A stretch of 64,000 bases of DNA from NCBI RefSeq assembly GCF_035084215.1, contig NC_090358.1, positions 3,596,001 to 3,660,000 of the forward strand, read 5' to 3'. This document shows positions 60,556 to 64,000 of this stretch, piece by piece (within the stretch, counting starts at the first letter, position 1; the number at the start of each line of letters is the position of its first letter). The notes below the pieces were generated by a model, which did no database searches, had not been told where the DNA came from, and saw only the letters and a program-made list of their open reading frames with translations. The translations under genes and the position numbers were made by a program. The stretch comes from Heptranchias perlo (Eukaryota).

Positions 60556-60728
60556 GGAATATGCTGTTAATGAAGTAGTTGCAGGAATAAAGGAATATTT
60601 CAATGTGATGTTGGGGACGCAACTGCTGTACAAATTTGAGAGGCCACAGTACGCAGAGATCTTGGCAGACCATCCAGATGCACCCATGTCGCAGATTTAT
60701 GGAGCGCCACATCTCCTTCGACTGTTTG
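60556..60728 (+). CDS. MORF4L1: MORF4L1 exon 10: [57 protein letters not shown]
   Basis: CTTAG acceptor, GTAAGT donor, 173 nt; MRG-domain motifs LLYKFER and [10 protein letters not shown]. Confidence 0.98.
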
Positions 60729-60955
60729 GTAAGTTCAGTTGATTTTCTGAATTGGTTGTCGTGCTTTGTACAAAGTTATTTCCAGATTTCTACCCTCCCT
60801 TCCCCTTCTGAAGGTGGTGCTTGTGTGTTGGGTATGGGTGCAACCTTCAGCTACCTCAGCCTACTCTGTCAGTTCTCACGAGAACAGGCGGTGAGTATTA
60901 GGCTACTAAGCACAGCTTAGTCTAATCTCGTCCTCATCCAAAGAAGGAATTTGCA

Positions 60956-61375
60956 AGAAAGAACTTGCATTTATATGGCGCTTTTCACATTCTCAGGACT
61001 TCCCAAAGCGCTTTATAGCCAATGACGTACTTTTGAAGTAGTCACTGTTGTAATGTAGGAAATGCGGCAGCCAATTTACGCACAGCAAGGTCCCACAAAC
61101 AGTAATGAGATAATAACCAGATCATCTGTTTTAGTGAAGTTGGTTGAGGGATAAATATTTGCCAGGACACTCCCATGCACTTCTTTGAATAGTACCACTT
61201 TTACATCCACCTGAGAGCAGGCGGGGCCTCGGTTTAATGGCTCATCTGAAAGACTACCTCCAACAGTGCAGCACTCCCTCAGAACTGCACTAGGAGCTTA
61301 GTTTTTGTGCTCAAGCCTCTGGAGTGGGGCTTGAACCCACGACCTTCTGACTCGGAGACGAGAGTGCGAAGACTG
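60956..61375 (-). mobile_element. Deu-domain SINE copy; partial copies also at 3215-3335 (+), 20460-20660 (+), 23705-24165 (+, interrupted) and 27595-27800 (-)
   Basis: Collinear with 9899-10355. Confidence 0.85.
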
Positions 61376-62958
61376 ACCTCCAACATTCACATGAGCATTT
61401 CCAGGAAACTTGCTGGATAATGATTAGGAGTCTGGGGGTCAACCCAGGGCCTCCTCAGTCTAGCTGGCTTGCTACTACAGTACACACTGAATTCACTGAG
61501 AACTGGCTGAAGTATACTGTTTATATTTTCAACCCAAATTGAGGAATAAGAACTGGTCTGAGCAACGTCATAGTGGAAAAAGTCATGTAGCCGTGACTGC
61601 TTGAAGTGACAGTGCACCAAGAAAGTGGAGGGCAGAGTTTTTTCCTTTCTTTATAAAGCTTTGATTAGTCTGTAATCCTCCGGCTGATTCAGGCTGTCAG
61701 GAGCTTTTTGCAAAATACTTAGAAAACAGCACCATTGTGAGTCTGATCTGATTGATGCAATGCAGGCCTTTTCTAAAATCATCCAGCAAAAAATGTTTGT
61801 TCTCGGTGTAAAATTATCCTTAAAATACAATAAAAATCACAGTGAACTGTCGGATTTCAACTAATCCGGATTCCTTCCCTAACAACAACTTTTATTTATA
61901 TAGCTCCTTTAACGTAGTGAAACGTCCCAAAGCTTGGTCATAGAGGTAGGTTTTAAGGAGCGCCTTAAAGGAGGAGAGAGGGGTTTAGGGTGGTTTAACC
62001 CCCCCCCCCCCCCAAGTTGCTGTAGTAACCATTTAGGGTGTCACACATGCGCTATCTTTTCCCATCTGCCCTCTCCATGCAGGATAACTTATAGTTGGTT
62101 AACGCAGGTCCAGTTTCCATTATCTTGTACCCAGTTATCAGTGGGCCTTTTCTTCACCTCGTCCTTCCCAGGAGTTGGCTGTTTGTTGCCACTTGCTGCA
62201 GTAATGACATTGAACGTAGTGTACTCAACTGATATCTTCAGTAATTACTAGCTTAATCCATATGCAGCCTTTTAATTATGTAAACCTGTTTGGATCATTC
62301 GTGAAATGGTAGTTTCGGATAACTAGATTTTCTGTACTTGTTAAATTTTGTGAATGGAATTATGTTCTTGACTGTGCTGCTTAATTAAGAATTGTGATAA
62401 GCGATTTGAAGGAACATGAAGTAAGGTTGAACAGTGAATGACTAGCAGCTTTGGGAGAAGGGCATTTACCTGTATGCTCATTTTTAAAACCTTTACAACA
62501 AGAGGAGGCTCGATTATAGTGACCTCCACACCCCTCCTCTGGTAAATAACCTAACAGCACTGTGCCTAGGCTGGTGCAGGAAAAATGGCTGCTTGGGCAG
62601 ACATTGGAGGTCTCTAGAACCATACTCCTGTAACGACTAGAGCCTTCATGGGGAGAGGGGAGGAAAAATGTTCATGTTTATTCCCTTTTGAGCACAAAAA
62701 TTAACAGAATCTGGGGCTGACACCTGTCGCTTGATAATGTTACACTTGTGACCTCCTCCCTCCCCAGCTAAAGTAGCCGTTTGTCTCCAAACCTGAAATT
62801 CACCCGAGGACAGCTCTGCTGACGCATCATGAAAATCTTAAGATTTAAAAAAAGATGAATTGAGTTGCCTGATTGGCGCATGCGGAGCACAGAAACAAGC
62901 GATCTGTTTCGGTAAACCTTCTCCCAGTTGATGCTGTGCCATGTGCTTTCTAGAGAAC

Positions 62959-63141
62959 ATGTGGAGATGCCGGTGATGGACTGGGGTGGACAAATGTAAG
63001 GAATCTTACAACACCAGGTTATAGTCCAACAATTTTATTTTAAAATCACTACTCACCTGACGAAGGAGATAATCTCCGAAAGCTTGTGATTTTAAAATAA
63101 AATTGTTGGACTATAACCTGGTGTTGTAAGATTCCTTAAAT
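62959..63141 (+). mobile_element. Short palindromic Penelope-like element with 13-bp target-site duplication
   Basis: Perfect 53-bp inverted arms at 62997-63049 and 63086-63138, flanked by the direct repeat CTTTCTAGAGAAC (62946-62958 and 63142-63154). The loop carries a hammerhead-like core. Confidence 0.85.
63053..63089 (+). ncRNA. Minimal type I hammerhead ribozyme motif
   Basis: UCAC-CUGACGA-A-GGAGA-UAA-UCUCC-GAAA-GC-UU-GUGA: stem I UCAC/GUGA, core CUGANGA and GAAA, stem II GGAGA/UCUCC, and palindromic AAGCUU in place of stem III. Confidence 0.75.
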
Positions 63142-63316
63142 CTTTCTAGAGAACGTTCTCTCCTCTAATATTCTCTCAAACGAAATAGGCGATGGCAGGG
63201 TGAGTGTCCTTGTAATTTCCCACTGAAATGTCTCCGCTGTGCAGCTACCAGTAGAAGCTACTGGCACCTGTGCCAACACCACTGCATTGATCTAATGTTG
63301 AGCTTCTCTCCGGCAG

Positions 63317-63401
63317 TGCGAATAGGAGCAATGTTGGCGTACACACCTCTGGATGAGAAGAGTCTGGCGTTGCTGCTGAATTACTTGCACGATTTCTTAA
63401 A
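63317..63401 (+). CDS. MORF4L1: MORF4L1 exon 11: (V)RIGAMLAYTPLDEKSLALLLNYLHDFL(K); final exon lies beyond the window
   Basis: GGCAG acceptor, GTAAGT donor, 85 nt. Exons 1-11 sum to 887 nt in one open frame with no stop codon yet. Confidence 0.97.
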
Positions 63402-64000
63402 GTAAGTAGAATTCTTAAATCCTCAAAGACGTTAAGAATATGATACACGATGGGCCGAATGGCCGCCTTCTGTGCTGTAAGGTCCTATGATTACAATAAA
63501 TCGATACAGGGTTAGGAAGTCGGAGTGGAATTTCATCGTGGCAAACGTTTTATATAAAAAAACATAAGATTTCTTTGTTTACTAGTGAAAATCATGTAAA
63601 CCTCAAGAAAGAGTAACAGAAAATGCTGGAAAACACTCAGCAGGTCAGGTAGTATCTGTGGAGTGAAAGAAACAGAGTTAACTTTTACTTAGTGATTTTA
63701 CAGTTTTTAAGCAATAACCGAGCCATGGAAATGGTGGGGGTGGGGGGAGAACAATGGGGAAGGTCAGGGGTGATTAAATGACAGGAGGGATGATGGTGCA
63801 AGGCATAGGGGGGTGGTAATGGACCAAGGGAAGAAACTAAAGATCCAGAGGAGGTGTAAACGGTACAGCAGAATAGCCTAGGGGGATGGAAGCGTGGGAA
63901 ATCTGGCAAAGAGGAGCAGGCTGCTGTGGCCTGGGAATGTGGTGGAGAAAGGTGGATGTAGACCCTTCAAGTTCACAAACTTCTGAGCCCTCGTAAACAA

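What the first reader, a model, noticed from the sequence alone, without database searches (positions are those of the whole stretch)
62946..63154. Very young palindromic Penelope-like insertion puts an intact hammerhead motif, sense-oriented, in the loop of a perfect 53-bp hairpin in MORF4L1 intron 10
Seen directly: a 13-bp TSD (CTTTCTAGAGAAC), perfect 53-bp inverted arms, and a loop containing UCAC-CUGACGA-A-GGAGA/UAA/UCUCC-GAAA-GC-UU-GUGA. Established: Penelope-like elements carry minimal type I hammerheads whose stem III is replaced by a palindrome, and these can cleave as dimers. Inference: this 183-bp non-autonomous element is recent and possibly polymorphic. It is transcribed in the cleavable orientation ~175 nt upstream of exon 11 of a conserved housekeeping gene. 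The GUGA strand can pair with either UCAC 63053-63056 (ribozyme stem I) or UCAC 63046-63049 (hairpin arm), a possible conformational switch. This could matter for element mobilisation and for host pre-mRNA integrity.
Basis: partly seen in the sequence, partly recalled or inferred. Interest (0 to 1): 0.7.

Follow-up and report, generated by a model that had tools for sequence, protein, structure and literature searches.

The report
Ordinary Penelope hairpin stub in intron
This small DNA hairpin with a ribozyme motif in a MORF4L1 intron is real, but it is a short head-to-head stub of a very abundant Penelope-like jumping gene (an estimated two thousand or so such stubs in this genome), likely built at landing from two short copies of the element's RNA leader; its ribozyme is predicted to be locked shut in the hairpin, and the host intron is spliced out at normal GT-AG sites, so it is ordinary in itself.

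Summary
Observation confirmed: 13-bp TSD, perfect 53-bp arms, minimal hammerhead in the loop, on the sense strand of an MRG-domain gene (MORF4L1) intron, 176 nt before the next exon. It is not a separate non-autonomous element. It is a 5'-truncated, head-to-head insertion of a Neptune/Nematis-type Penelope element that has 7,953 exact 36-nt arm copies here. Of the first 100 arms, 40 lie in 26 short hairpins; all 26 centres differ and each has a tail on one end only. The insert is the element's 5' leader (TATA-like box, hammerhead, tail, ATG) copied twice and joined at a TCAC microhomology. The left arm ends at the predicted cut site, but genome-wide that site is not preferred (16, 10 and 4 stops at -1, 0, +1; 0 of 95 sampled arms). 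Instead, 30-33 of 87 arms end just upstream of the core, about 30 nt after the TATA-like box, which is likely run-off from uncut RNA. The proposed switch is predicted to be about 99:0.5 for the hairpin. Spliced contigs join the flanking exons in 4 of 4 probable RNA runs (one sample). Polymorphism was not shown. This scan already noted the same pattern many times, in this genome and others.

The parts
62946..62958 (+). Left target-site duplication, 13 bp
   Evidence: sister stubs have 9-16 bp TSDs, 15 of 30 loci at 12 bp
62959..62996 (-). One-sided 'tail' (35-38 nt) of the Penelope pseudo-LTR. In full-length copies it ends at the ORF's ATG. Likely the outer reverse-transcription start.
   Evidence: L141, L174; tail as the span between two RT starts: PMC11167929
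62997..63049 (-). Left arm: inner part of the tail-bearing truncated copy; ends at the base after the predicted hammerhead cut
63046..63049 (.). TCAC microhomology at which the two truncated copies are joined; the natural leader of one subfamily reads TCATTCACTACTCACC
   Evidence: L056, L057 and L059 match 89 of 89 nt of 63050-63138
63050..63085 (+). 36-nt loop: 5' end of the tailless truncated copy, beginning 7-11 nt upstream of the ribozyme core, inside the family's peak of arm ends
63053..63089 (+). Minimal type I hammerhead motif (4-bp stem I, CUGACGA, bulged A, 5-bp stem II, GAAA, palindromic AGCU in place of stem III; predicted cut after 63085)
   Evidence: sequence; conserved across subfamilies; architecture as in PMC4209133
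63086..63138 (+). Right arm: outer part of the tailless copy, ending at the likely inner reverse-transcription start
63139..63141 (+). Three junction bases AAT (the element reads CAT here)
63142..63154 (+). Right target-site duplication, 13 bp
60729..63316 (+). Host intron (GT..AG) of the MRG-domain gene, which holds the insert
63317..63401 (+). Downstream host exon (RIGAMLAYTPLDEKSLALLLNYLHDFLK)

Best explanation
The insert is a dead-end, 5'-truncated, head-to-head insertion of an abundant young Neptune/Nematis-type Penelope-like retrotransposon, likely made in one event when the element's enzyme cut both DNA strands 13 bp apart and copied the short leader of its uncut RNA once from each cut end. 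Shown: the element layout is TATA-like box, about 40 nt, hammerhead core, 121 nt to the end of the tail, then ATG of an RT-containing ORF; the insert consists only of this leader, twice, in opposite orientation, with a tail on one copy only and a TCAC overlap at the join. Inferred: one copy started at the outer RT site (tail end, at the ATG) and the other at the inner site about 35 nt upstream. The tailless copy likely ran off the RNA's 5' end 7-11 nt upstream of the ribozyme core. The two cDNA ends likely annealed through TCAC/GTGA, the same four bases that form ribozyme stem I, which deleted the second ribozyme copy and left one in the loop. In host pre-mRNA the hairpin is predicted to sequester the GUGA strand; the lone minimal hammerhead would also need a partner RNA or the element's protein, so it is likely inert.
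For: Family size: 795 exact 58-nt ribozyme strings and 7,953 exact 36-nt arms. Autonomous partner: ORFs with RVT_1, a C-X4-C-XX-C linker and a VVY...YIG/CCHH-type C-terminus, read by eye (criteria from PMC8557442 passages). ATG directly after the tail in L141 and L174. The same head-to-head layout occurs with arms of 0.7-2.5 kb (L061-L064). In the first 100 anchor hits, 40 arms lie in 26 short hairpins; 26 of 26 have one tail and 26 of 26 have distinct centres. Arm ends: 33 of 87 arms that reach the core end within the next 16 nt (3 of these look like alignment over-run, so 30-33), against about 4 expected; Poisson P about 1e-16 for 30. Hazard is 0.024 per nt against 0.0013-0.0036 elsewhere. 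The peak lies about 25-40 nt after the TATAAG start, and about 7 of these ends join non-element DNA (by eye). The TCAC join recurs in different subfamilies and in both tail orientations (L077, L078, L080, L082, L089, L094, L095). Two-strand nicking, two internal RT starts that define the tail, and use of uncut RNA were shown in vitro for the Anolis element (PMC11167929). Fold probabilities. Splicing.
Against: No transcription start was measured: only assembled contigs were available, and they cannot show RNA ends. The GTGA/TCAC repeats just upstream of the core could raise the local rate of joins without a true RNA end. The D. virilis Penelope promoter is reported as internal and TATA-less (PMC2377424 passages), so the TATA reading is an inference; a TATA plus TCACT Inr-like motif is described for an Adineta pLTR. 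Arkhipova et al. 2013 favour self-priming on an antisense template for such palindromes. One unrelated locus (L002/L080) has exactly the same centre and orientation, as a master-copy model would predict. Pfam gave no GIY-YIG hit even at E<=1. The 100-arm sample comes from the first 34 Mb of one contig.
Confidence: 0.8

Rival explanations
1. The left arm was copied from a ribozyme-cleaved RNA, so this insert records hammerhead self-cleavage in vivo.
For: The left arm ends exactly at the base after the predicted cut (GUGA, 63086 equivalent). Ten such stops were found among 34 listed hits (9 of 30 loci by script, plus this copy).
Against: No excess at the cut site. Stops at -1: 16 of 46; at 0: 10 of 34; at +1: 4 of 25 (sorted by eye). 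About 6 per position are expected from background. Eight of the 10 are TCAC microhomology joins, whose true end may lie anywhere in those four bases. 0 of 95 sampled arms that reach the site end there. Uncut RNA was the main template in vitro for the Anolis element.
Confidence: 0.1
2. The 183-bp unit is a non-autonomous element (MITE/SINE- or retrozyme-like) that is copied whole from a master.
For: L002 is 99% identical over 183 bp with the same centre, at an unrelated site with its own TSD. A minus-strand transcript would contain both RT start sites.
Against: Only one other copy with the same centre and orientation was found among the best-scoring hits (40 of 1,055 candidates scored) and the listing. 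A mirror-image version (L019/L095) and versions from other subfamilies (L003, L077) show that the join forms repeatedly. 26 of 26 sampled centres differ. There is no tandem array of the unit, which retrozymes require (bioRxiv 2026.07.22.740005, part 1).
Confidence: 0.07
3. The palindrome arises by fold-back (self-priming) of a single cDNA or on an antisense RNA, not from two primed strands.
For: Proposed in print for PLE palindromes (PMC3846280 passage). Some centres are near-perfect fold-backs (L093, L096, L160).
Against: Here the loop's 36 nt occur on one side only and in the sense of the tailless arm, and across copies the longer arm can be the tailed or the tailless one (L080 against L095). 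The strict one-tail rule (26 of 26) matches two distinct start sites.
Confidence: 0.15
4. The insert acts as a hairpin/ribozyme switch that cleaves MORF4L1 pre-mRNA and affects the gene.
For: Sense orientation and an intact core. During transcription, between 63089 and about 63093, ribozyme stem I is predicted to be favoured (P about 0.7) before the arm takes over. The full-length penalty is only 3.1 kcal/mol.
Against: From 63100 on, stem I has P 0.002-0.005. Single minimal PLE hammerheads showed no detectable cleavage (PMC4209133), and the Anolis one needed its protein. The normal splice joint has contig depth 210-414 in 4 of 4 probable RNA runs. The insert stops 176 nt before the exon, upstream of where branch point and pyrimidine tract usually lie (recalled). 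No conservation in other species was shown.
Confidence: 0.03

Closest known systems
Insertions of endonuclease-bearing Penelope-like elements with inverted pLTR, one-sided 30-40-bp tail and TSD (PMC8557442 Fig. 2 legend and text; PMC3846280; passages seen)
   Same: Head-to-head 5'-truncated copies, tail on one end, TSD, hammerhead in the pLTR, partial-tandem full copies
   Different: Extreme truncation: leader only, no ORF. The join deletes one ribozyme, so a single one sits in the loop.
Neptune/Nematis clades of PLEs (PMC8557442, passages)
   Same: The partner ORF has RT, then a CX2-5CxxC linker, then a GIY-YIG-like domain with CCHH-type residues
   Different: No phylogeny was run, so Neptune against Nematis is not resolved; no microsatellite target at this site
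Minimal hammerheads of metazoan PLEs (Cervera and De la Pena 2014, PMC4209133, main text parts 1-2 of 4)
   Same: Short helix I, bulged base before helix II, G10.1-C11.1 pair, palindrome in place of helix III; often single or in opposed pairs 100-700 bp apart
   Different: Helix II is 5 bp (7-8 bp in the Schistosoma set); helix I 3' strand is captured by the flanking hairpin
PAc/Poseidon of Anolis carolinensis (Frangieh et al. 2024, PMC11167929, main text and part of methods)
   Same: Two internal RT starts bounding the tail, both strands extended, uncut RNA as the main template, no ends at the cut site
   Different: In PAc the starts lie 111-118 nt inside the ORF and the ribozyme overlaps the ORF start; here the outer start is at the ATG and the ribozyme lies wholly in the leader
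Non-LTR retrozymes (bioRxiv 10.64898/2026.07.22.740005, part 1 of 5)
   Same: Non-coding, PLE-derived, type I hammerhead
   Different: Retrozymes are direct tandem repeats with at least two ribozymes; this is a single inverted unit

Membership tests
EN+ Penelope-like element insertion | Terminus belongs to an element encoding a reverse transcriptase | tested here: met
   The same terminus flanks ORFs with RVT_1, E 3e-10 to 6e-7
EN+ Penelope-like element insertion | C-terminal GIY-YIG endonuclease with CCHH motif | tested here: inconclusive
   VVYLIRC-x3-C...YIGET...H...H...E seen by eye; no Pfam hit at E<=1; no informative PDB hit
EN+ Penelope-like element insertion | pLTR in partial tandem or inverted arrangement | tested here: met
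   Inverted: L061-L064; tandem: L141, L174
EN+ Penelope-like element insertion | 30-40-bp tail on one end | tested here: met
   35-38 nt here; one tail in 26 of 26 short hairpins
EN+ Penelope-like element insertion | Target-site duplication | tested here: met
   13 bp here; 9-16 bp in 30 of 30 loci, at most 1 mismatch, two loci being the same site
Neptune/Nematis clade | CX2-5CxxC linker between RT and EN | tested here: met
   C-HGNL-C-KT-C in the L061, L171 and L172 ORFs, against PMC8557442
Neptune/Nematis clade | RT phylogenetic placement | not tested
   No reference PLE RT set was at hand
Minimal type I hammerhead of PLEs | CUGANGA and GAAA core, helices I and II, palindrome at helix III | tested here: met
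   Sequence; core kept across subfamilies whose stem I and II letters vary; Rfam has no matching model hit
Minimal type I hammerhead of PLEs | Self-cleavage as dimer or with protein | not testable with these tools
   Needs an in vitro assay; genomic ends show no excess at the cut
Non-LTR retrozyme | At least two ribozyme units in direct tandem | tested here: not met
   One ribozyme, inverted layout
Non-autonomous element copied whole (MITE/SINE-like) | Many copies with the same internal sequence | tested here: not met
   26 distinct centres in 26 loci; one other same-centre, same-orientation copy found

The most novel reading that the evidence does not exclude
The thousands of stubs are a genomic record of how Penelope elements insert. 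Both nicked strands prime on an uncut leader RNA, one at the start codon and one about 35 nt upstream. Reverse transcriptase runs off at the pLTR transcription start just ahead of the hammerhead. The ribozyme's own complementary stems supply the microhomologies that seal the two cDNAs into a hairpin. This would explain PLE inverted ends, map the promoter from DNA alone, and show that ribozyme cleavage is not what sets template ends in vivo.
Probability: 0.6. Interest if true: 0.4.

Novelty: new member of a known kind. Interest (0 to 1): 0.15.

Why it matters
This copy matters little: it is one stub among an estimated 2,000 or more (26 hairpins per 100 anchor hits, scaled to 7,953 hits), and no host effect was found. 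The family as a whole bears on an open question, how Penelope elements form inverted ends and what their hammerhead does. Arm ends pile up at a likely transcription start and avoid the ribozyme cut, which agrees with the one in vitro study and gives a precise prediction for 5'-end mapping. I did not find this run-off account in 4 literature searches, but the library lacks most subscription papers and I read no supplements.

Tried and rejected
Rfam scan: no hammerhead family hit, only sub-threshold miRNA-hairpin models caused by the palindrome; rejected as miRNA. Cut-site hypothesis: tested with three neighbouring-position counts and a 100-arm sample; no enrichment. The three listings keep only hits with a non-T at the last pattern position (about three quarters) and an exact 23-25-nt anchor. 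Conformational switch: rejected on predicted ensemble, except for a short co-transcriptional window. Master-copy model: rejected. Polymorphism: only one sample of this organism was listed; other organisms gave no contigs across the site, and the left flank had almost no cover, so no empty allele could be sought properly. No RNA holder was listed as RNA on record; four guessed-RNA runs are contigs and cannot show ends at 63085 or a transcription start. [quoted passage not shown] Pfam and PDB did not confirm GIY-YIG. My simple hammerhead pattern found no second copy of this family's ribozyme in the window.

Full report
Observation. The TSD is 13 bp and identical. The arms are perfect over exactly 53 bp with a 36-nt loop, and the fold is far beyond shuffles (z -16.3). 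The loop holds a minimal type I hammerhead in the + sense; Rfam did not detect it, so the call rests on the motif and on PMC4209133. The host is an MRG-domain gene on the + strand. Contigs of four guessed-RNA runs from one sample splice 60728 to 63317 at GT..AG. The name MORF4L1 and the exon numbers are recalled.

Family. The 183 bp gave 82 matches from 40 scored of 1,055 candidates. Exact counts are 795 for a 58-nt ribozyme string and 7,953 for a 36-nt arm string, with 0 for the reversed controls. The 30 best loci (29 sites) share the layout tail, arm, variable centre, arm, with TSDs of 9-16 bp. Long copies have the same head-to-head layout with 0.7-2.5 kb arms. Their ORF has an RT, a CX4CxxC linker and a GIY-YIG-like end seen by eye but not hit by Pfam. 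That fits the Neptune/Nematis description in PMC8557442 (passages). In two tandem copies the tail is followed at once by the ORF's ATG, 121 nt after the ribozyme core, and a TATAAG box lies 38-42 nt before the core. The insert is therefore the element's leader copied twice.

The join. The natural sequence upstream of the ribozyme in one subfamily is TCATTCACTACTCACC, and three long copies match 63050-63138 at 89 of 89 positions. The left arm ends in TCAC. The two halves thus overlap by TCAC, which is also the ribozyme's stem I sequence.

Was the template cut by the ribozyme? The left arm stops exactly at the predicted cut, so I tested this. Genome-wide listings gave true stops at -1 in 16 of 46 hits (by eye), at the cut in 10 of 34 (9 of 30 loci by script, plus this copy), and at +1 in 4 of 25 (by eye); the remaining hits were point variants that carry on. 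Background predicts about 6 per position. Eight of the 10 are TCAC joins. In the first 100 anchor hits (34 Mb of contig C1, all fetched) 0 of 95 arms that reached the site ended there. Cleavage is therefore not a preferred template end, as in vitro for the Anolis element.

Where arms do end. Of 87 arms that reach the core, 33 end within the next 16 nt (30 after removing three apparent over-extensions), against about 4 expected; the rate falls about fifteen-fold beyond that. This is roughly 25-40 nt after the start of the TATA-like box. Our right half begins 7-11 nt before the core, inside the peak. About seven of these ends abut unrelated DNA, so arm-to-arm microhomology is not the whole cause. 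I infer run-off at the transcription start. It is not measured, and the D. virilis promoter is TATA-less.

Separate element? Forty of the 100 arms lie in 26 short hairpins (up to about 320 bp); each has one tail and all 26 centres differ. Scaled to 7,953 hits this gives about 2,000 such stubs, a rough figure from one region that counts only stubs with an exact anchor. One other locus (L002) shares our centre, but mirror and other-subfamily versions exist (L019, L003, L077), so recurrence at a microhomology explains it.

Host effect. In the full RNA, ribozyme stem I has probability 0.002-0.005 against 0.99 or more for the hairpin (3.1 kcal/mol penalty). It is favoured only while the transcript ends between about 63089 and 63093. 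Lone minimal hammerheads were inactive or protein-dependent. The normally spliced form is present in 4 of 4 runs; contigs cannot exclude minor cleavage. Polymorphism is untested beyond one sample. There, a 358-nt contig crosses the right junction unbroken in two runs, and the two versions differ at 63185-63186, a weak hint that both haplotypes carry the insert.

Comparison and verdict. The layout is described for EN+ PLEs, and the two-start, two-strand chemistry for PAc. This copy is a new member of a known kind, and I score it 0.15. Papers seen: PMC4209133 and PMC11167929, parts 1-2 of 4; bioRxiv 2026.07.22.740005, part 1 of 5; PMC3846280, PMC8557442 and PMC2377424, passages only; the rest as search listings. 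I read no supplements; Fig. S2 of PMC11167929 could bear on arm-end positions. My reading was noted before I looked at earlier scan notes. Those notes (65 findings in at least 13 genomes; 241 fitting in this genome) reach the same view and are not independent evidence.

Noticed in passing
window 63148-63161: The target site carries a 14-bp palindrome (AGAGAAC/GTTCTCT) centred exactly on the outer edge of the right TSD.
   Followed up: no
window, minus strand, starting at 23908 and 22512: Two hammerhead-like motifs of a different repeat family (CUGACGA, longer stem II, GAAA, palindromic ACGU).
   Followed up: no
window 63139-63141; L011, L017, L018: The tailless end reads CCTTAAA where the element has CCTTACA, with A's not matching the target; may mark the priming step. 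The loci came from a query holding this end, so frequency is biased.
   Followed up: no
L045 (G000:C1:23349228-23349463): Hairpin whose centre holds three short tandem copies of the ribozyme's 5' part, suggesting repeated template jumps.
   Followed up: no
L170, L042: Hairpins whose two arms are joined by about 70-140 nt of non-matching filler DNA.
   Followed up: no
L141 (G000:C1:19671650-19675300), L174 (G000:C32:18667000-18671500): Near full-length partial-tandem copies of the autonomous element, about 3.0 kb between repeats; both ORFs are interrupted.
   Followed up: partly
L096-L170 sample: Several subfamilies differ in ribozyme stem I and II letters (UCAC/UCAU; GGAGA/GGGGA, which keep pairing through G-U) while the core and the TATAAG box stay fixed.
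   Followed up: partly
window 63185-63186: Two adjacent differences between contigs of two DNA runs of the same sample; a possible heterozygous site next to the insert.
   Followed up: no
window about 60955-61367, 63445-63492, 63614-63686: Other high-copy repeats in the same and the next intron (very high contig depth).
   Followed up: no
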